This document shows, piece by piece, positions 3,217 to 47,874 of a DNA stretch of 64,000 nucleotides (positions within the stretch are counted from its first letter, which is position 1; each line of letters begins with the position of its first letter). Made by a program: the position numbers and the translations under genes. The notes under the pieces were generated by a model, which was not told where the DNA came from, ran no database searches, and saw nothing but the letters and a program-made list of their open reading frames with translations. The stretch lies in NCBI GenBank assembly GCA_026188615.1, contig GCA_026188615.1_4525.1; one strand, 5' to 3'. This stretch comes from a phage.

Positions 3217-3876
3217 TTAACCTCGATTCATAAATGCATTAAATATTTGGTCATCAACAGAAATTTCTAATTCAACTTCAATTGCTTCAGCCTTTTCTTC
3301 AGGTGGTAATTCATATCCACACACTACAATTTTTTCATCGATATCAAAATATACAGAAGCAATACGATTAATGTTACTTTCAGTTAAGTCTAAATCAACA
3401 TCAACATCTTTTTGACCTACACTTAAAGGATAACTAATACGGGTTATTTTATTATCTTTAACAAAGAGACCACCAACATACTCTGTACTACGTTTGAAGT
3501 TTACACGTTTCCGAATTGAAAGATATGATGCATCTTTACCATGAGCTCGGCTCATAGGACATAATGAATAGCTAGAATAAGAGATGTCAAATCCTACACC
3601 TTCAATATGAGCCAACGTGTCATGATTAAACCAATTATAATCATATGCCAAATCCATTATATTGTAATATGTGAAAGGCACAGGATTAACATCATATGTT
3701 GTACCTTTAAAATCTGCCCAGGCAACGATTTCGTTATCTTTAACAATTACAAAAATTACACCAATATGGTATCCGTTATTATTTTCATTCGGCGTTATAT
3801 TATAACATTGTGCATTAGGAAATTTACCATATTTAAATGGCGCATTTTTGTGCATATAATAAATCATATTATTCAC
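3217..3876 (-). CDS. hypothetical protein (61.2-like position)
   Basis: 219-aa ORF; no motif recognised. Confidence 0.5.
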   Translation of the reverse strand: MNNMIYYMHKNAPFKYGKFPNAQCYNITPNENNNGYHIGVIFVIVKDNEIVAWADFKGTTYDVNPVPFTYYNIMDLAYDYNWFNHDTLAHIEGVGFDISYSSYSLCPMSRAHGKDASYLSIRKRVNFKRSTEYVGGLFVKDNKITRISYPLSVGQKDVDVDLDLTESNINRIASVYFDIDEKIVVCGYELPPEEKAEAIEVELEISVDDQIFNAFMNRG

Positions 3877-43149: not shown

Positions 43150-43309
43150 ACATTTGCAATTCGGTGTGGGTGTCAGCCATCTTTTTCATTGCCTTATTGA
43201 TATCAATATCGCCATCTTCGCACCCATGGGCATTCTCCCAATCAGATACGGCATTAGCGTACTCTTCAATCAAAAACATTAACTTAGAAATTTTTTCTTT
43301 ACGTGACAT
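43130..43309 (-). CDS. hypothetical protein
   Basis: Internal ATG MSRKEK; track ORF extends into the promoter. Confidence 0.4.
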   Translation of the reverse strand: MSRKEKISKLMFLIEEYANAVSDWENAHGCEDGDIDINKAMKKMADTHTELQMYVNEIM

Positions 43310-43336
43310 AACGTTCTCCTCTAGTAAGTAAAGACT

Positions 43337-43365
43337 ACTATAACACAACCTGCGGAGAAGTAAAC
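43337..43365 (-). promoter_or_regulatory. early-type promoter
   Basis: GTTTAC-N17-TATAGT immediately after terminator 43376..43404. Confidence 0.55.
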
Positions 43366-43375
43366 TGATAGATAC

Positions 43376-43404
43376 AAAAAAGCCCCAACCATAAGGAAGG
43401 GGCT
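43376..43404 (-). terminator. rho-independent terminator
   Basis: AGCCCC...GGGGCT stem with internal GNRA-like loop, then T5 on minus strand; after rI. Confidence 0.65.
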
Positions 43405-43410
43405 AGTAAA

Positions 43411-43713
43411 TTAGATAGATGTAGGCTCTAATTTTATTTTCATGAACTCGGCAAATTGTTTGGCAGTTTTTATGCCTTGTTCATGACATTCAAATGCATC
43501 ATCACAGGGGCTATTTTTGTAATGCTTTGCCATATACTTATAGAATTTTTCAGAGTTCTCGACATTTTGAATTTCAAACAAAGTGTATACGTTTTTAATC
43601 CCTGATTCCATAAAGTTATCAAAGTATGGGTCAACATATGCAGTACCAACGATAGGAGTTGTTGCTGCAAAAAACCCAAGCATCGCCATGACAGCTATCG
43701 CTCTTAAGGCCAT
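43411..43713 (-). CDS. rI: lysis inhibition regulator RI
   Basis: 100 aa; signal anchor then VDPYFDNFMESGIKNVYTLFE...PCDDAFEC matches T4 RI. Confidence 0.85.
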   Translation of the reverse strand: MALRAIAVMAMLGFFAATTPIVGTAYVDPYFDNFMESGIKNVYTLFEIQNVENSEKFYKYMAKHYKNSPCDDAFECHEQGIKTAKQFAEFMKIKLEPTSI

Positions 43714-43725
43714 ATAGGCCTCCTG

Positions 43726-43938
43726 TTAATTTTGGCCAGTATTTATTTTTCGCCTTTGGACGGCCTTAACATCTGCGAGGTATTTTTCCAGCTTGCGCTT
43801 GCGTGTATAATCAGCTTTAGAACCAGTTTGACGAATATCCTCGTTTAAATGAGAAATAGAATGTCCTAATTCTCTTCGGATTTCGTCCAATTGGGTTACA
43901 GTAAGATTACGAAGTTGTCTTTCGTTTAATTGCTGCAT
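43726..43938 (-). CDS. hypothetical protein
   Basis: 70-aa ORF; late-promoter-like TATAAATA upstream. Confidence 0.5.
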
Positions 43939-43962
43939 ATATACCTCTTGGTTAGATATTAG

Positions 43963-43970
43963 TATTTATA
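43963..43970 (-). promoter_or_regulatory. late-promoter-like TATAAATA
   Basis: Exact TATAAATA on minus strand 24 nt upstream of ORF 43726..43938. Confidence 0.45.
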
Positions 43971-44547
43971 ACAACCCTGTCAAATCATTCCAATGCTTCC
44001 GGCATAATGACACGTATCTATCAGTATCACCAATTTCAATTTGACTGCCATCTGTAATTGGAAGTCCGTCTTCCGTGACTCTAGCTACCATTGTGGCTTT
44101 TTTACCGCAATGACAGACACCTTTAAGTTCAACAAGCTTATCAGCAATAGCCATTAATGCTTGAGAACCTTCAAATAGATTACCTTTAAAATCTGTTCGT
44201 AGTCCGTATGCCATTACCGGCACATTGTATACGTCAACAATACGACTAAGTTGATACACCTTTTCAGTAGTTAAGAACTGAGCTTCGTCAACAAATACAC
44301 AGTGAATATCCTTTTGTGCTGCAGCCCATTTATAAAATTCAAAGATATCCATGTCTTTTGTAATTATATTGGCATCCTGACGAATACCAATACGGGAGAC
44401 TATTTCACCTTTTGAATCGCGAGTATCAATAGCCGGTTTAAGAACTAATACACCCATGCCACGTTCTTTATAGTTATGTGCGGCAGTAAGTAATGAAGCG
44501 GACTTACCAGCGTTCATAGCGGCATAGGTAAAAATTAAACTAGCCAT
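43966..44547 (-). CDS. tk: thymidine kinase
   Basis: 193 aa; Walker A YAAMNAGKSASLL, C-terminal Zn site CHCGKKA...CRKH. Confidence 0.93.
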   Translation of the reverse strand: MASLIFTYAAMNAGKSASLLTAAHNYKERGMGVLVLKPAIDTRDSKGEIVSRIGIRQDANIITKDMDIFEFYKWAAAQKDIHCVFVDEAQFLTTEKVYQLSRIVDVYNVPVMAYGLRTDFKGNLFEGSQALMAIADKLVELKGVCHCGKKATMVARVTEDGLPITDGSQIEIGDTDRYVSLCRKHWNDLTGLL

Positions 44548-44556
44548 AAGAGTCCC

Positions 44557-44739
44557 TTATAGTGAATTCACGTAGTCAATGAGTTCTTGTTCTTTCCTGT
44601 CAAATGATTCCATCAATGCTTGATATTCTTCGTCTGTTAAAGGAGCATATTCATCGTACGCATTGGTGGCTGCTTGCTCATCCAATAGGTCATGGATAAG
44701 TTCGAACAGTTTAGTTTTCTCTTCTTTAGTCAATTTCAT
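44557..44739 (-). CDS. hypothetical protein
   Basis: 60-aa ORF. Confidence 0.4.
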   Translation of the reverse strand: MKLTKEEKTKLFELIHDLLDEQAATNAYDEYAPLTDEEYQALMESFDRKEQELIDYVNSL

Positions 44740-44957
44740 TTAGGTTCACCTTCTTTAACGAAATCTGGGTAAGGGTAAAATCCTGAGTAAAACCCTTCAC
44801 CTTTATGATTGCTACAACCTTTGTTCGAACAGTAACACCAATAATCAAAATCACAAGCCATTTCGTCATTGCATAAAGCAAAAACTACAGGCCATTCGCA
44901 TTTTTCGCATTTAGCACCTGTAAGAATTTTTGTTTGGCTCATAACAATGGTTCCCAA
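44736..44957 (-). CDS. Cys-rich small protein
   Basis: 73 aa with 8 Cys (CEKCEW...CNDEMAC...CYCSNKGC). Confidence 0.45.
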   Translation of the reverse strand: MGTIVMSQTKILTGAKCEKCEWPVVFALCNDEMACDFDYWCYCSNKGCSNHKGEGFYSGFYPYPDFVKEGEPK

Positions 44958-45439
44958 TCAACAATCACAATTTCTAGTTTAGTGGAATACGTATCTAAAA
45001 TCTCTTCGATGACATCCCAGTTTCCACCACCACCAATACCTGCACCAATTCTTGGCATATAAATTACAGGCTTTGTTATCTTATTTTTTCCGAATTCATT
45101 TAATTCTATTATACAATTCATTAAAGCAGAGTACTCAAAATTAGGTCCCGGCTCAAACTGTGTATAAAGATTAAAGCAATAAGCTTTATGGGTCTTAAAA
45201 TATTTTTCATAAACCGAATAAGTCCCGAGTTTAGACTTGTCTCCGAATTCGGTTTGAAGTTTATCGGCTTCCAGAATTTTTGGATAAGCCTTTGCTAATT
45301 GTCCTGCCACACCAGCACCCATTGTATGAAAACAATTGCACCCATGAGCAATATTATTACCTTTAGAAAACAGGGCGACAATATCGCCCTTGATATAGTT
45401 TTTAATCACTTGCTGCAAGTCCTCTAGTATAAGAGTCAA
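44939..45439 (-). CDS. macro-domain protein (TARG1/OARD1- or DarG-like)
   Basis: 166 aa; NIAHGCNCFHTMGAGVAG and YMPRIGAGIGGG resemble TARG1 motifs AHCISEDCRMGAGIA and MPRIGCGLD. Confidence 0.65.
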   Translation of the reverse strand: MTLILEDLQQVIKNYIKGDIVALFSKGNNIAHGCNCFHTMGAGVAGQLAKAYPKILEADKLQTEFGDKSKLGTYSVYEKYFKTHKAYCFNLYTQFEPGPNFEYSALMNCIIELNEFGKNKITKPVIYMPRIGAGIGGGGNWDVIEEILDTYSTKLEIVIVDWEPLL

Positions 45440-45749
45440 CTAGGCGGTCTACCATAGAATTGCATGCTGCCTTATCTTTAGGTTCCGCCACCGAGCATTC
45501 TAATATTTGCCATTTTTTATGATATCGTTTAATTAAGGTAGACGCCTTGAACCTACTAGACGCCCCATCTTTTTCTCCGTCTTTATATGCGTATAACAAT
45601 TTTTGTGAAAAATCTACTTTACACTCTTGACTTTTACCACAATAATCAGACGCCGTTCTGTTTGTATACTCCGTTACATCAGTATATGTAGTATTAGCAA
45701 GAGCGTTAAATGAAACCAAGCCAACTATTAAAGCCAACATTTTGGTCAT
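45402..45749 (-). CDS. secreted Cys-containing protein
   Basis: 115 aa; signal peptide MTKMLALIVGLVSFNALA. Confidence 0.5.
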   Translation of the reverse strand: MTKMLALIVGLVSFNALANTTYTDVTEYTNRTASDYCGKSQECKVDFSQKLLYAYKDGEKDGASSRFKASTLIKRYHKKWQILECSVAEPKDKAACNSMVDRLVDSYTRGLAASD

Positions 45750-46288
45750 TCTTTTATTTCCAGTAGTTTATTTGATTTAAGGTAATTAGCCTTTTCTAGG
45801 ACTTCAGAAGCATATTTACTTCCAGCACTTGTCTTCCATCCCGCATTATATGAGGATATAGCTTTTCTTATATCCCCGTTATGTATATTTAACCAATAAG
45901 AAAATTCGATATAAGCCCATCTGGCTGAATTAGACCGCTTAGATAGCATTTTCTTAATTTGGGCATCAGTCATATTATAACCAAGTTGGTTAATTCTTGC
46001 CCTCATTGTTGGTAGATAATTTTGGAACATTCCATACGCATGGTGACCTTTCTTATCTTTAAGATTAATACCGGCAGATGATTCCTGCCATAGTATTGCG
46101 GCCATTATGTATCCAAGTCCTTTCTTATGCATATTTTCATGCGTTTTAAATTTTCCGTCCTTAGAAAACTGTTCCCCAAACTGATAAGCATAATTCAAGT
46201 TATCGAGTTGGACATTACTAAAAGTATGCTCGGAGCTATGTGCTGATAACGAAAGAGCAAATAGACCAGCGAGTAGTGCTTTTCTCAT
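45746..46288 (-). CDS. soluble lytic transglycosylase-like protein (vs.1-like)
   Basis: 180 aa; signal peptide; SLT motifs WQESS, YGMFQ, SYNAG. Confidence 0.7.
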   Translation of the reverse strand: MRKALLAGLFALSLSAHSSEHTFSNVQLDNLNYAYQFGEQFSKDGKFKTHENMHKKGLGYIMAAILWQESSAGINLKDKKGHHAYGMFQNYLPTMRARINQLGYNMTDAQIKKMLSKRSNSARWAYIEFSYWLNIHNGDIRKAISSYNAGWKTSAGSKYASEVLEKANYLKSNKLLEIKE

Positions 46289-46296
46289 GTTTACCT

Positions 46297-46755
46297 CTAG
46301 ATTTTAATCACTGCTTTAGAAGCTTTTCCTGGTAGTCGTTTATTGTTAATAATAGCCATTCTGCATTGAAGAGTCTTCATTTTGAATGCCGGATTTTCGC
46401 GACAAACTGTAAGTCCTAACCAAAGATTTCCGTCAGTTATTTCTAAACGGCCCGGGCGATATTCGACACCTTCGTCAAAATCTTCATCAACATCTGGACG
46501 TGCCGGCATTGATAAAAATTCTGCAACTTCTTTAACATGATTTTTTACTTTATGAAATAATTCAAAAACGTAATTCTCATCTATTTCTCTCTGGATGGCA
46601 CGATCTAAGAGATGTTGAGAATACTTGATATGAAAGCCTGGTAGTCCAAGAGACTTTGCAGCATCTTTTATACTGGCATTTATTTTGCGGAACTCCGTTT
46701 CAAAGATTCGACGGAGTTTATTGCGGCGGATAAAAACGTCTGAATTGATAGTCAT
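46297..46755 (-). CDS. regB: RegB endoribonuclease-like
   Basis: 152 aa; size and position as T4 regB; sequence similarity recalled only weakly. Confidence 0.6.
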   Translation of the reverse strand: MTINSDVFIRRNKLRRIFETEFRKINASIKDAAKSLGLPGFHIKYSQHLLDRAIQREIDENYVFELFHKVKNHVKEVAEFLSMPARPDVDEDFDEGVEYRPGRLEITDGNLWLGLTVCRENPAFKMKTLQCRMAIINNKRLPGKASKAVIKI

Positions 46756-46783
46756 TTTGATTTCTCCTCTAGTTGACAGGTCT

Positions 46784-46812
46784 ATAGTAACACAACTAGA
46801 GGAGAAGTAAAC
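46784..46812 (-). promoter_or_regulatory. early-type promoter upstream of regB
   Basis: GTTTAC-N17-TACTAT. Confidence 0.5.
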
Positions 46813-46816
46813 TACT

Positions 46817-47032
46817 TTATTGATAAAATGGAGTTAAAGCCCAAGATTCTTTAGATACTATATTGGCGAAACGCCTCATCTCTTCGATTTGGCGACGACG
46901 CTGGTCAGCATAGTCTTCTTCGCCTTCTTCCTTACAATCTTCAAGGTCTTCTTCAAGATACTTTAAGTATTCACTACAAATTTTGTTGACCTTTTCTTGA
47001 AAGTCCAATAACCCAGTAATAGTAGAAGCCAT
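46817..47032 (-). CDS. hypothetical protein
   Basis: 71-aa ORF. Confidence 0.45.
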   Translation of the reverse strand: MASTITGLLDFQEKVNKICSEYLKYLEEDLEDCKEEGEEDYADQRRRQIEEMRRFANIVSKESWALTPFYQ

Positions 47033-47466
47033 TAGTATTTTTCCTCAGGACGAAATACTGCACGACACGCCCACATGCTGGCTTCTTTTAGATGTTGCTT
47101 AGCATACTTAAGAGCCTGCACTGCATCCATATCTTCTTTGGTTTGTTCCTCTGTTTCATTTTCTTTCAAGATATATGCTTCTTCAATCAGAGCATCAAAC
47201 AACAATCCAAGACGGACTTCGGCATCTTTAATAGCGTTCACTTTACTGATTTTATCATCGGTATGCGGCTTGTAGCCTTTGATGTCTTCAATCGACATAA
47301 GGAATTTCCTCATCGGTGGCAAGGTCGTATTCGACCAATTGGATAGGCTCATTAATACCATATCCACGTACAGTGATATCAGTTGTCGGATAGTTTCCAG
47401 TAATATCACCCATTCTAAATGCTTCAATGAATGATTGCTCGCCTGAGCAACTAAACCAGGCGGCAA
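47032..47466 (-). CDS. hypothetical protein (start uncertain)
   Basis: 144-aa ORF; upstream part overlaps 47288..47512 in another frame. Confidence 0.35.
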   Translation of the reverse strand: MPPGLVAQASNHSLKHLEWVILLETIRQLISLYVDMVLMSLSNWSNTTLPPMRKFLMSIEDIKGYKPHTDDKISKVNAIKDAEVRLGLLFDALIEEAYILKENETEEQTKEDMDAVQALKYAKQHLKEASMWACRAVFRPEEKY

Positions 47467-47512
47467 AACATTTTAAAACATCTTCGGACCCTTCTATAAT
47501 CAATTTAGCCAT
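47288..47512 (-). CDS. hypothetical protein
   Basis: 74-aa ORF abutting grcA. Confidence 0.4.
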   Translation of the reverse strand: MAKLIIEGSEDVLKCFAAWFSCSGEQSFIEAFRMGDITGNYPTTDITVRGYGINEPIQLVEYDLATDEEIPYVD

Positions 47513-47874
47513 TATAGACTCTCAGTAAAGGTACGAGCGATAACGTCACGCTGCTGTTCCGGAGTCAGAGAGTTAAAGCGAACTGCATAACCGGATACAC
47601 GGATGGTCAGCTGCGGATATTTTTCCGGATGCTTAACTGCATCTTCCAGAGTTTCACGACGCAGAACGTTAACGTTCAGGTGTTGACCACCTTCAATTTT
47701 AACTTTAGGTTGATGTTCAATTTCAATTTCACGGGCATTCAAACCGTAGAAAATTTCTGGATCTACAATAGCGTCTTCTTTAAAAGTCTTAGAGACAATA
47801 ATCCGGGCTTGAGTACCGTCTTCAAAATAAATAGTGCCTTTGTGTGCACCTTCAAGAATTTGATATGCTTTCAT
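47512..47874 (-). CDS. grcA: autonomous glycyl radical cofactor GrcA/YfiD homolog
   Basis: 120 aa; C-terminal [60 protein letters not shown] matches E. coli GrcA from memory; locally GC-rich. Confidence 0.85.

What the first reader, a model, noticed from the sequence alone, without database searches (positions are those of the whole stretch)
44939..45439. TARG1/DarG-like macro domain protein: possible reversal of ADP-ribosylation
Motifs NIAHGCNCFHTMGAGVAG and YMPRIGAGIGGG resemble the TARG1-type macro domain, the fold DarG antitoxins use to remove ADP-ribose from DNA. A phage copy could counter DarT-like or other ADP-ribosylating defences, or remove host- or phage-installed ADP-ribose marks.
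Basis: partly seen in the sequence, partly recalled or inferred. Interest (0 to 1): 0.6.

Follow-up and report, generated by a model that had tools for sequence, protein, structure and literature searches.

The report
Phage anti-DarT2 macrodomain (T4 tk.4/adfM)

Summary
The ORF and both quoted motifs are real. The true gene is 44939..45409 on the minus strand (156 aa, GTG start), not ..45439. The window comes from a T4-like (Mosigvirus-type) coliphage. The gene sits between vs and the tk cluster, as T4 tk.4 does, and is about 80-85% identical to T4 Tk.4.

A 2025 preprint (HIDEN-SEQ) found tk.4 to be the only T4 gene needed to resist DarTG2, and named it adfM. Hydrolysis of ADP-ribosyl-thymidine on phage DNA was inferred there, not assayed.

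One point goes beyond that work. The TARG1 catalytic Lys84 and Asp125 are both absent. They are replaced by Gln84, present in 259 of 260 family representatives, and by Gly/Ala. This matches Streptomyces SCO6735, a lysine-less enzyme that does cleave DarT-made thymidine-ADP-ribose and needs that Gln.

This copy also has one extra Gly in the diphosphate-binding loop, found in no relative examined.

Verdict: interpretation supported, function already known, low interest.

The parts
44939..45409 (-). adfM / tk.4 ortholog CDS: 156-aa stand-alone macrodomain. GTG start, TGA stop at 44941..44939.
   Evidence: ORF. Start aligned to the T4 ATG, with the upstream SD conserved. 80% identity by tblastn and 85% in the MAFFT alignment to T4 Tk.4. 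Identical to phage WFbE185 QBQ77616 apart from one extra Gly. Pfam Macro, PHROG 335 at E 3e-64.
45410..45439 (-). In-frame upstream extension (from TTG 45439) included in the finding. Not part of the gene; it lies inside the 3' end of vs and holds the GAGGA Shine-Dalgarno at 45424..45420.
   Evidence: T4 has an in-frame TAG directly before its ATG at the aligned position.
45302..45346 (-). Loop 1 of the ADP-ribose pocket: H22-G-C-N25-C-F-H-T-M-G-A-G33-V-A-G36. H22 aligns with SCO6735 His24 and Poa1p His23. N25 aligns with SCO6735 Asn27 (and, per the SCO6735 paper, the conserved DarG asparagine).
   Evidence: Conservation in 260 family representatives: H22 252, N25 258, C26 259, G33 259. Alignments. 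SCO6735 N27S is nearly inactive. TaqDarG N22A is strongly impaired.
45158..45172 (-). N80-L-Y-T-Q84 strand end. Gln84 occupies the position of TARG1 Lys84 and SCO6735 Gln85 (and of DarG Lys80, by the equivalence stated in PMC9411070).
   Evidence: Q84 is present in 259 of 260 representatives. SCO6735 Q85A is inactive.
45017..45055 (-). Loop 2, the diphosphate-binding loop: P119-R-I-G-A-G-I-G-G-G-G-N-W131. Gly126 aligns with TARG1 Asp125.
   Evidence: The family has Ala (187) or Gly (70) at the D125 position and never Asp.
45023..45034 (-). GGT GGT GGT GGA run encoding G126-G129. Every relative examined has one GGT fewer.
   Evidence: The residue is an insert state in all 260 aligned representatives. 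The exact protein is not on record.
45402..45749 (-). Upstream neighbour vs (valyl-tRNA synthetase modifier). Its TAA stop overlaps the adfM start (GTGATTAA).
   Evidence: 67% identity to T4 Vs.
44736..44942 (-). Downstream neighbour: Cys-rich 68-aa ORF whose ATG overlaps the adfM stop (ATGA). Then a tk.2-like ORF (44557..44739) and tk (43966..44547).

Best explanation
The gene encodes the ortholog of phage T4 Tk.4/AdfM, an orphan DarG-like antitoxin. It is a stand-alone ALC1-like macrodomain made from the pre-replicative tk-vs-regB gene block. It most likely binds ADP-ribose that the host toxin DarT2 attaches to thymidines in single-stranded phage DNA and cuts the thymine-ribose bond. That restores replicable DNA and lets the phage grow on DarTG2 hosts.

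Catalysis is probably of the lysine-independent SCO6735 type. In that scheme Gln84, held by Asn25, positions the distal ribose and a water does the chemistry, instead of the Lys nucleophile of TARG1 and DarG.

Shown here: gene, start, orthology, synteny, fold class and active-site residues. Shown elsewhere: T4 tk.4 is required for DarTG2 resistance; SCO6735 hydrolyses thymidine-ADPr DNA and depends on its Gln; an isolated DarG macrodomain is sufficient as an antitoxin. Inferred: this protein hydrolyses thymidine-ADPr DNA, it uses the Gln mechanism, and the extra Gly is tolerated.
For: Orthology and synteny: 80% (tblastn) to 85% (MAFFT) identity to T4 Tk.4 over the full length, lying between vs and the tk cluster.

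Genetics of the ortholog: tk.4 was the single hit on DarTG2 and the knockout is sensitised. T4 lacking adfA and adfN stays DarTG2-resistant.

Active site: Q84 aligns with TARG1 K84 and SCO6735 Q85, N25 with SCO6735 N27, G124 with SCO6735 G128, and the shared loop 2 reads PRIG[AC]G[IL][AG]GGxW. SCO6735 Q85A is inactive, N27S is nearly inactive, and SCO6735 neutralises DarT. The DarG macrodomain alone rescues cells from DarT.
Against: No biochemical assay exists for T4 Tk.4 or for this protein; the preprint only infers hydrolysis. The genetic evidence is a preprint on a protein that differs at 15-20% of residues.

This copy has an extra Gly in the catalytic diphosphate loop that no relative examined has. 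AF2 confidence drops there (block 121-130, pLDDT 76).

SCO6735's DNA-binding Lys34 and Lys89, and its longer mobile loop, are not conserved here. The SCO6735 mechanism itself rests on MD simulation plus mutagenesis.

The N-terminal half resembles the phosphatase Poa1p at least as much as it resembles DarG.
Confidence: 0.72

Rival explanations
1. It blocks DarT2 without catalysis, either by binding the toxin or by capping ADP-ribosylated DNA. Its macrodomain pocket would serve only for recognition.
For: Catalytically dead SCO6735 Q85A still inhibits DarT strongly in vitro. AdfA and AdfB are binding-type anti-DarT factors. The canonical nucleophile Lys is absent.
Against: TaqDarG-macro K80A alone does not inhibit DarT, and the DarT-binding C-terminal domain of DarG is absent here. 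Near-invariance of Q84, N25, N80 and the Gly loops across 260 diverse representatives points to a conserved catalytic pocket, not a toxin-specific interface. The PhiKZ macrodomain AdfM acts enzymatically.
Confidence: 0.1
2. It is mainly a Poa1p-like ADP-ribose-1''-phosphate phosphatase, or a scavenger of small ADP-ribose derivatives. This matches the legacy 'phosphatase' annotation. Any anti-DarT2 effect would be secondary.
For: T4 Tk.4 is annotated 'phosphatase; contains A1pp phosphatase motif', and PHROG 335 is named 'phosphatase'. Poa1p is among the best sequence and structure matches. The HxCNC motif is shared. Poa1p H23 and S30, both mutated in PDB entries 6lfs and 6lft, align with H22 and T29. 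A comparative-genomics review argued that phage Macro domains mostly target small ADPr derivatives.
Against: The annotation is homology-derived with no assay behind it. The only phenotype known for the ortholog is DarTG2-specific. The residue at the K84/Q84 position is Ser in Poa1p but invariant Gln here, as in the DNA hydrolase SCO6735.
Confidence: 0.08
3. It erases ADP-ribose from proteins or RNA. The marks would come from other host defences or from the phage's own Alt/ModA/ModB enzymes.
For: TARG1 and SCO6735 also act on ADP-ribosylated protein. RNA-ADP-ribosylating defences are known (discussion).
Against: No data link tk.4 to these substrates. From my own knowledge, not tested here: T4 Alt/Mod enzymes modify arginine, a linkage that macrodomains of this class are not known to cleave. 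No ADP-ribosyltransferase gene lies next to it.
Confidence: 0.06
4. This particular allele is impaired, because the one-residue Gly insertion in the diphosphate-binding loop disturbs ADP-ribose binding. Alternatively the insertion is a sequencing or assembly slip in a GGT repeat.
For: The insertion is absent from all 260 family representatives and from every top phage hit. G-to-E changes in this loop impair DarG and SCO6735. It lies in a triplet repeat prone to slippage.
Against: It is in-frame and adds a Gly to an already Gly-rich flexible loop. The rest of the protein is identical to an intact relative.
Confidence: 0.04

Closest known systems
Phage T4 Tk.4 = AdfM (anti-DarT factor Macrodomain; bioRxiv 10.1101/2025.11.20.689424)
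   Same: Ortholog: 80-85% identity over the full length, same size (155 vs 156 aa), same position between vs and the tk cluster, same start context, same active-site residues.
   Different: 15-20% of residues differ. One extra Gly in loop 2. GTG start instead of ATG. T4's tk.3 is missing downstream in the window.
Streptomyces coelicolor SCO6735 (PDB 5E3B) and its close homolog Bacteroides BT1257 (2FG1/2AFC)
   Same: ALC1-like macrodomain with no catalytic Lys or Asp. It shares the essential Gln (Q85/Q84), the Asn that holds it (N27/N25), the His (H24/H22), the NxxxQ motif and the PRIG[AC]G[IL]AGGxW loop. SCO6735 cleaves thymidine-ADPr DNA and neutralises DarT.
   Different: Only about 23% identity. 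SCO6735 has a mobile loop 5-6 residues longer carrying Lys89, and has Lys34, both of which help bind DNA. Here the loop is short and Ala32 replaces Lys34. SCO6735 is a cellular, DNA-damage-regulated protein and not a phage gene.
DarG antitoxin macrodomain (T. aquaticus 5M31, M. tuberculosis 5M3I, T. africanus DarTG 7OMU)
   Different: DarG uses Lys80; here that position is Gln. DarG has a C-terminal DarT-binding domain and is encoded beside darT; neither applies here. NCBIfam DarG scores 26.5 bits against a cut-off of 250.
Human TARG1/OARD1 (4J5R/4J5S)
   Same: Best Foldseek hit (E 9e-10). Family profile E 2.4e-17. Shared KGD, MGAG and MPRIG.G motifs.
   Different: The catalytic dyad Lys84/Asp125 is replaced by Gln84/Gly126. 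TARG1 has Ser at the Asn25 position.
Yeast Poa1p (6LFQ), ADP-ribose-1''-phosphate phosphatase
   Different: Ser instead of Gln at the position-84 equivalent. A longer C-terminal half. It is a small-molecule phosphatase involved in tRNA-splicing by-product clearance.
PhiKZ gp104, also named AdfM (Cell Rep 2026, PMC13309987)
   Same: A stand-alone phage macrodomain that counters DarTG2. It has been shown biochemically to remove DarT2-made ADP-ribose from DNA.
   Different: Only remotely related (hhalign 95.7%, 20% identity over 114 columns). Its sequence has a DarG-like FPTK motif with Lys. It is imported into the phage nucleus. It appears to be an independent acquisition that received the same name.

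Membership tests
Macro domain superfamily (Pfam PF01661) | Score at or above the Pfam gathering threshold | tested here: met
   24.6 bits against a cut-off of 22, residues 32-138 of the 166-aa ORF.
Macro domain superfamily (Pfam PF01661) | Three-layer alpha/beta/alpha macro fold | tested here: met
ALC1-like (TARG1/DarG/Poa1p/SCO6735) macrodomain class | Closest solved structures and sequences belong to this class and not to the MacroD, PARG or viral classes | tested here: met
TARG1-type catalytic mechanism | Catalytic Lys84 and Asp125 dyad | tested here: not met
   K84 aligns with Gln84 and D125 with Gly126. The family has Gln in 259 of 260 and Ala/Gly in 257 of 260.
DarG antitoxin (NCBIfam NF048014 equivalog) | Score at or above the equivalog cut-off, full-length match | tested here: not met
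   26.5 bits against a cut-off of 250. Only profile positions 4-146 of 338 are matched.
DarG antitoxin (NCBIfam NF048014 equivalog) | C-terminal DarT-binding domain and an adjacent darT gene | tested here: not met
   The protein is 156 aa, macrodomain only. Its neighbours are vs and small tk-cluster ORFs.
DarG antitoxin (NCBIfam NF048014 equivalog) | Catalytic Lys80 | tested here: not met
   Gln84 aligns directly with TARG1 K84. PMC9411070 states that this position equals DarG K80.
T4-type AdfM (Tk.4) orthologous group | High full-length identity to T4 Tk.4 | tested here: met
   80% over 156 columns by tblastn; 85% in MAFFT.
T4-type AdfM (Tk.4) orthologous group | Conserved position: directly downstream of vs, upstream of the tk cluster, same strand | tested here: met
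T4-type AdfM (Tk.4) orthologous group | Needed for growth on DarTG2-expressing hosts | not testable with these tools
   Shown only for T4.
SCO6735-type lysine-less DNA ADP-ribosylhydrolases | Essential Gln at the Lys84/Lys80 position, held by a conserved Asn; Gly in the phosphate-binding loop | tested here: met
   Q84/Q85, N25/N27 and G124/G128 align. All are nearly invariant in the family.
SCO6735-type lysine-less DNA ADP-ribosylhydrolases | Extended mobile loop with Lys89, plus Lys34, for DNA binding | tested here: not met
   The loop after Gln is 5-6 residues shorter, and Ala32 replaces Lys34.
SCO6735-type lysine-less DNA ADP-ribosylhydrolases | Hydrolysis of thymidine-linked ADP-ribose on ssDNA | not testable with these tools
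   Needs an enzyme assay.
Poa1p-type Appr-1''-p phosphatase | Equivalents of Poa1p His23 and Ser30 (the residues mutated in PDB 6LFS and 6LFT) | tested here: met
   H22 and T29 align with them. This shows only that the residues are compatible. Activity was not tested, and the paper describing these mutants was not in the library.

The most novel reading that the evidence does not exclude
The very large phage family typified by T4 Tk.4/AdfM may be a distinct, lysine-less branch of the ALC1-like macrodomains. At least 1,287 clusters (50% identity) match at E <= 1e-30, and Gln is essentially invariant at the 'catalytic Lys' position. On this reading the family removes DarT2-made thymidine-ADP-ribose by the water-mediated SCO6735-type mechanism and not by DarG/TARG1 chemistry. 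It may therefore have a wider substrate range (protein, RNA or small-molecule ADP-ribose adducts) than the DarG it is being likened to.
Probability: 0.5. Interest if true: 0.4.

Novelty: already known. Interest (0 to 1): 0.22.

Why it matters
Phages of the T4 group carry several layers of protection against bacterial toxins that ADP-ribosylate DNA: AdfA, AdfN against guanine modification, and AdfM against thymine modification. This gene is the AdfM layer in this phage, so it helps predict host range on DarTG2-carrying E. coli, which is relevant to choosing therapeutic phages.

The one point that may go beyond published work is mechanistic. The family lacks the catalytic lysine of DarG and TARG1 and looks like the Gln-dependent SCO6735 enzymes. 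That would make it a convenient small model for lysine-independent DNA de-ADP-ribosylation.

Tried and rejected
- Single-sequence AlphaFold failed (pLDDT 35.6). It was replaced by a run on a 91-sequence alignment.
- An exact-sequence look-up of the 156-aa protein found no record.
- The promoter/terminator scan of 43300-47600 gave no enrichment (11 promoter-like sites against 14.5 expected). No dedicated promoter is claimed.
- An HMM search of all 600 window ORFs of at least 40 aa with the family profile found no second macrodomain. The 12-bit hit to the tk.2-like ORF is treated as noise.
- The TTG-45439 start was rejected in favour of GTG-45409.
- DarG membership was rejected: score, domain architecture, Lys80 and gene context all fail.
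- The TARG1-type Lys/Asp mechanism was rejected.
- Identity with the PhiKZ 'AdfM' lineage was rejected.
- A search for the Poa1p structure paper, to check its catalytic residues, found nothing in the library. Only the PDB entry titles were used.
- The HIDEN-SEQ preprint does not cover Mosigvirus or RB69-like phages, so the phenotype is extrapolated from T4.

Full report
**Observation**

The finding's coordinates match a real minus-strand ORF, 44939..45439, 166 aa counted from a TTG. Both quoted motifs are in its translation.

The 5' end should be moved to the GTG at 45409.
- In T4 the orthologous gene starts at an ATG that aligns with this GTG, and an in-frame TAG lies directly upstream of it.
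- A GAGGA Shine-Dalgarno is conserved 10 nt upstream (45424..45420).
- Relatives are annotated from this position as 468-nt genes.

The gene is therefore 44939..45409, 156 aa. Its start overlaps the stop of vs (GTGATTAA). Its stop overlaps the start of the next small ORF (ATGA).

**Where the window comes from**

The region 43900-46800 is 98.7% identical to Escherichia phage AlbertHofmann (Bas47). Positions 30000-54000 are about 96% identical to a set of Mosigvirus/T4-like coliphages.

Gene order around the finding is rI, rI.1, tk, a tk.2-like ORF, a 68-aa Cys-rich ORF, the macrodomain gene, vs, vs.1, regB, all on the minus strand. This is the T4 tk-regB block.

The macrodomain protein is 80% identical to T4 Tk.4 by tblastn and 85% in a MAFFT alignment. 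It is identical to the 'macro domain protein' of phage vB_EcoM_WFbE185 except for one inserted Gly. It is the tk.4 ortholog.

**What kind of protein**

- Pfam Macro passes its gathering threshold, though modestly: 24.6 against 22 bits.
- PHROG 335, named 'phosphatase', matches at 3e-64.
- Against PDB sequences the single protein hits BT1257 (3.5e-9), yeast Poa1p (1.9e-7), SCO6735 (1.4e-3), Taq DarG (8e-3), TARG1 (0.013) and Mtb DarG (0.054).
- A profile of 91 homologs raises these to 2.3e-18 (BT1257), 2.4e-17 (TARG1), 2.2e-15 (SCO6735), 6.8e-14 (Mtb DarG) and 1e-13 (Poa1p). Coronavirus Mac1 is at about 6e-4.
- AlphaFold without an alignment failed. With the alignment it gave pLDDT 93.7 and pTM 0.90.
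- Foldseek ranks TARG1 first.
- The NCBIfam and PADLOC DarG models match weakly and only over their macrodomain part.

**Published function of the ortholog**

The HIDEN-SEQ preprint (bioRxiv 10.1101/2025.11.20.689424, Nov 2025) screened a T4 transposon library on a DarTG2-expressing host. It found one significant hit, tk.4. A clean tk.4 knockout was sensitised to DarTG2. The authors renamed the gene adfM (anti-DarT factor Macrodomain) and proposed, without an assay, that it removes ADP-ribose from DNA.

This fits earlier work showing that T4 lacking both adfA and adfN is still DarTG2-resistant (PMC11825919). It also fits the finding that an isolated DarG macrodomain is sufficient to neutralise DarT (PMC5179494).

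An unrelated-lineage phage macrodomain, PhiKZ gp104, was independently named AdfM and was shown biochemically to remove DarT2-made ADP-ribose from DNA (PMC13309987). It is only remotely similar to the protein here (hhalign 95.7%, 20% identity). Its sequence carries a DarG-like FPTK motif with Lys.

**Catalytic-residue mapping**

They are lost. In HMMER, hhalign and hmmalign alignments, TARG1 Lys84 aligns with Gln84 and TARG1 Asp125 aligns with Gly126.

Across 260 family representatives:
- Gln84 is present in 259.
- The Asp125 position is Ala (187) or Gly (70), never Asp.
- Asn25 (258), Asn80 (258), Cys26 (259), Tyr82 (259), His22 (252) and Gly122/Gly124 (257 each) are nearly invariant.

This is the pattern of SCO6735. 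I recovered the SCO6735 sequence through its close homolog BT1257 (E 7e-53) and aligned it to the family profile (hhalign 98.5%, E 1.6e-15). The correspondences are SCO6735 His24/Asn27/Gln85/Gly128 to His22/Asn25/Gln84/Gly124 here. The phosphate loop PRIGCGLAGGTW matches the family consensus P.IGAGIAGGDW.

According to PMC9411070, SCO6735 lacks the TARG1/DarG catalytic residues yet cleaves thymidine-linked ADP-ribose on DNA and protects against DarT. Q85A is inactive and N27S is nearly inactive. A water-mediated mechanism is proposed in which Gln85 positions the distal ribose.

The loss of Lys/Asp therefore does not argue against activity. It points to the lysine-independent branch of the class.

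There are differences from SCO6735. The mobile loop after the Gln is 5-6 residues shorter and lacks Lys89, and Ala32 replaces Lys34. DNA contacts must therefore differ.

**Most likely mechanism**

The protein is made from the pre-replicative tk-regB block. That these are early/middle genes is my own knowledge of T4 and was not tested here; the promoter scan was uninformative.

The protein recognises ADP-ribose attached by DarT2 to thymidine in single-stranded phage DNA and hydrolyses the base-ribose bond. This removes a block to replication.

Orthology, fold and residues are shown here. The anti-DarTG2 requirement is shown for T4. Hydrolysis and the Gln mechanism are inferred.

**Rivals**

- Non-catalytic inhibition of DarT2. 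SCO6735 Q85A does inhibit DarT, but the DarG macrodomain K80A does not.
- A primary Poa1p-like Appr-1''-p phosphatase role. This is the legacy annotation. His22 and Thr29 match Poa1p His23 and Ser30.
- Erasure of protein or RNA ADP-ribosylation.
- Impairment of this allele by its extra Gly.

**Family size**

The family is large and mostly phage-borne. There are 2,654 phage records with a tblastn match, from Escherichia, Klebsiella, Salmonella, Pseudomonas, Vibrio and Acinetobacter phages among others. In the 50%-identity representative library, 18,795 proteins match at E <= 1e-3, 9,482 at <= 1e-10 and 1,287 at <= 1e-30. BFVD hits include 'tk.4' of Acinetobacter phage 133. The window contains no second macrodomain gene.

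**Verdict**

The function is already described for the T4 ortholog, so the finding is not new.

The residual interest is mechanistic: a Gln-type, lysine-less active site that the preprint passages I read do not mention. There is also a curious one-Gly expansion in the catalytic loop of this copy.

Noticed in passing
window 45023-45034 (-): A GGT triplet expansion adds a fourth Gly to the diphosphate-binding loop (GAGIGGGGNW). All 260 family representatives and all top phage hits have the shorter loop, and the exact protein is not on record. It could be natural slippage or a sequencing slip; the effect on activity is unknown.
   Followed up: partly
window 45372-45390 (-): An 8-bp GC-rich hairpin (AGGGCGATATTGTCGCCCT) followed by a U-run lies 12 nt after the vs stop, inside codons 7-13 of the macrodomain gene. 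It is identical in T4 and JK45, although the flanks differ. The fold z-score is -2.1, and the Shine-Dalgarno may pair with the U-run. It may be an attenuator, a terminator or an mRNA-stability element.
   Followed up: partly
window about 3220-3867 (-): Homolog of T4 gp61.2 = AdfA, another anti-DarT factor, at 65% identity. It carries Arg where T4 has His (NINRIAS vs IINHIAS). This is position 164 if the protein starts at MHKNAPF. PMC11825919 describes that RB69/Bas46/Bas47-type R164 variant as not neutralising DarT1.
   Followed up: partly
window 44736-44942 (-) and the tk cluster 43966-44942: T4 tk.3 is absent from the window. Many relatives such as JK45 carry an extra ~210-nt, 70-aa gene that the window also lacks (their alignments split into two pieces, 3107 vs 2901 nt). 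The 68-aa Cys-rich ORF just downstream of the macrodomain gene (MSQTKILTGAKCEKCEW...) has no T4 tk.1 or tk.3 match. Its ATG overlaps the macrodomain stop (ATGA).
   Followed up: no
window about 1190-1470, between the gene 56 and gene 61 homologs: T4 dam (DNA adenine methyltransferase), which sits between genes 56 and 61 in T4, has no tblastn match anywhere in the window.
   Followed up: no
not in the window (PDB 2FG1/2AFC, 5E3B, CHD1L chains): The structural-genomics protein BT1257 is a close homolog of the characterised DNA ADP-ribosylhydrolase SCO6735 (E 7e-53). The ALC1/CHD1L macrodomain also has Gln at the TARG1 Lys84 position.
   Followed up: no
window 45402-45749 (-), vs: The HIDEN-SEQ preprint reports the upstream neighbour vs as the most strongly depleted T4 gene in minimal medium. 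vs and adfM overlap by 8 nt, so polar effects between the two may matter when designing mutants.
   Followed up: no
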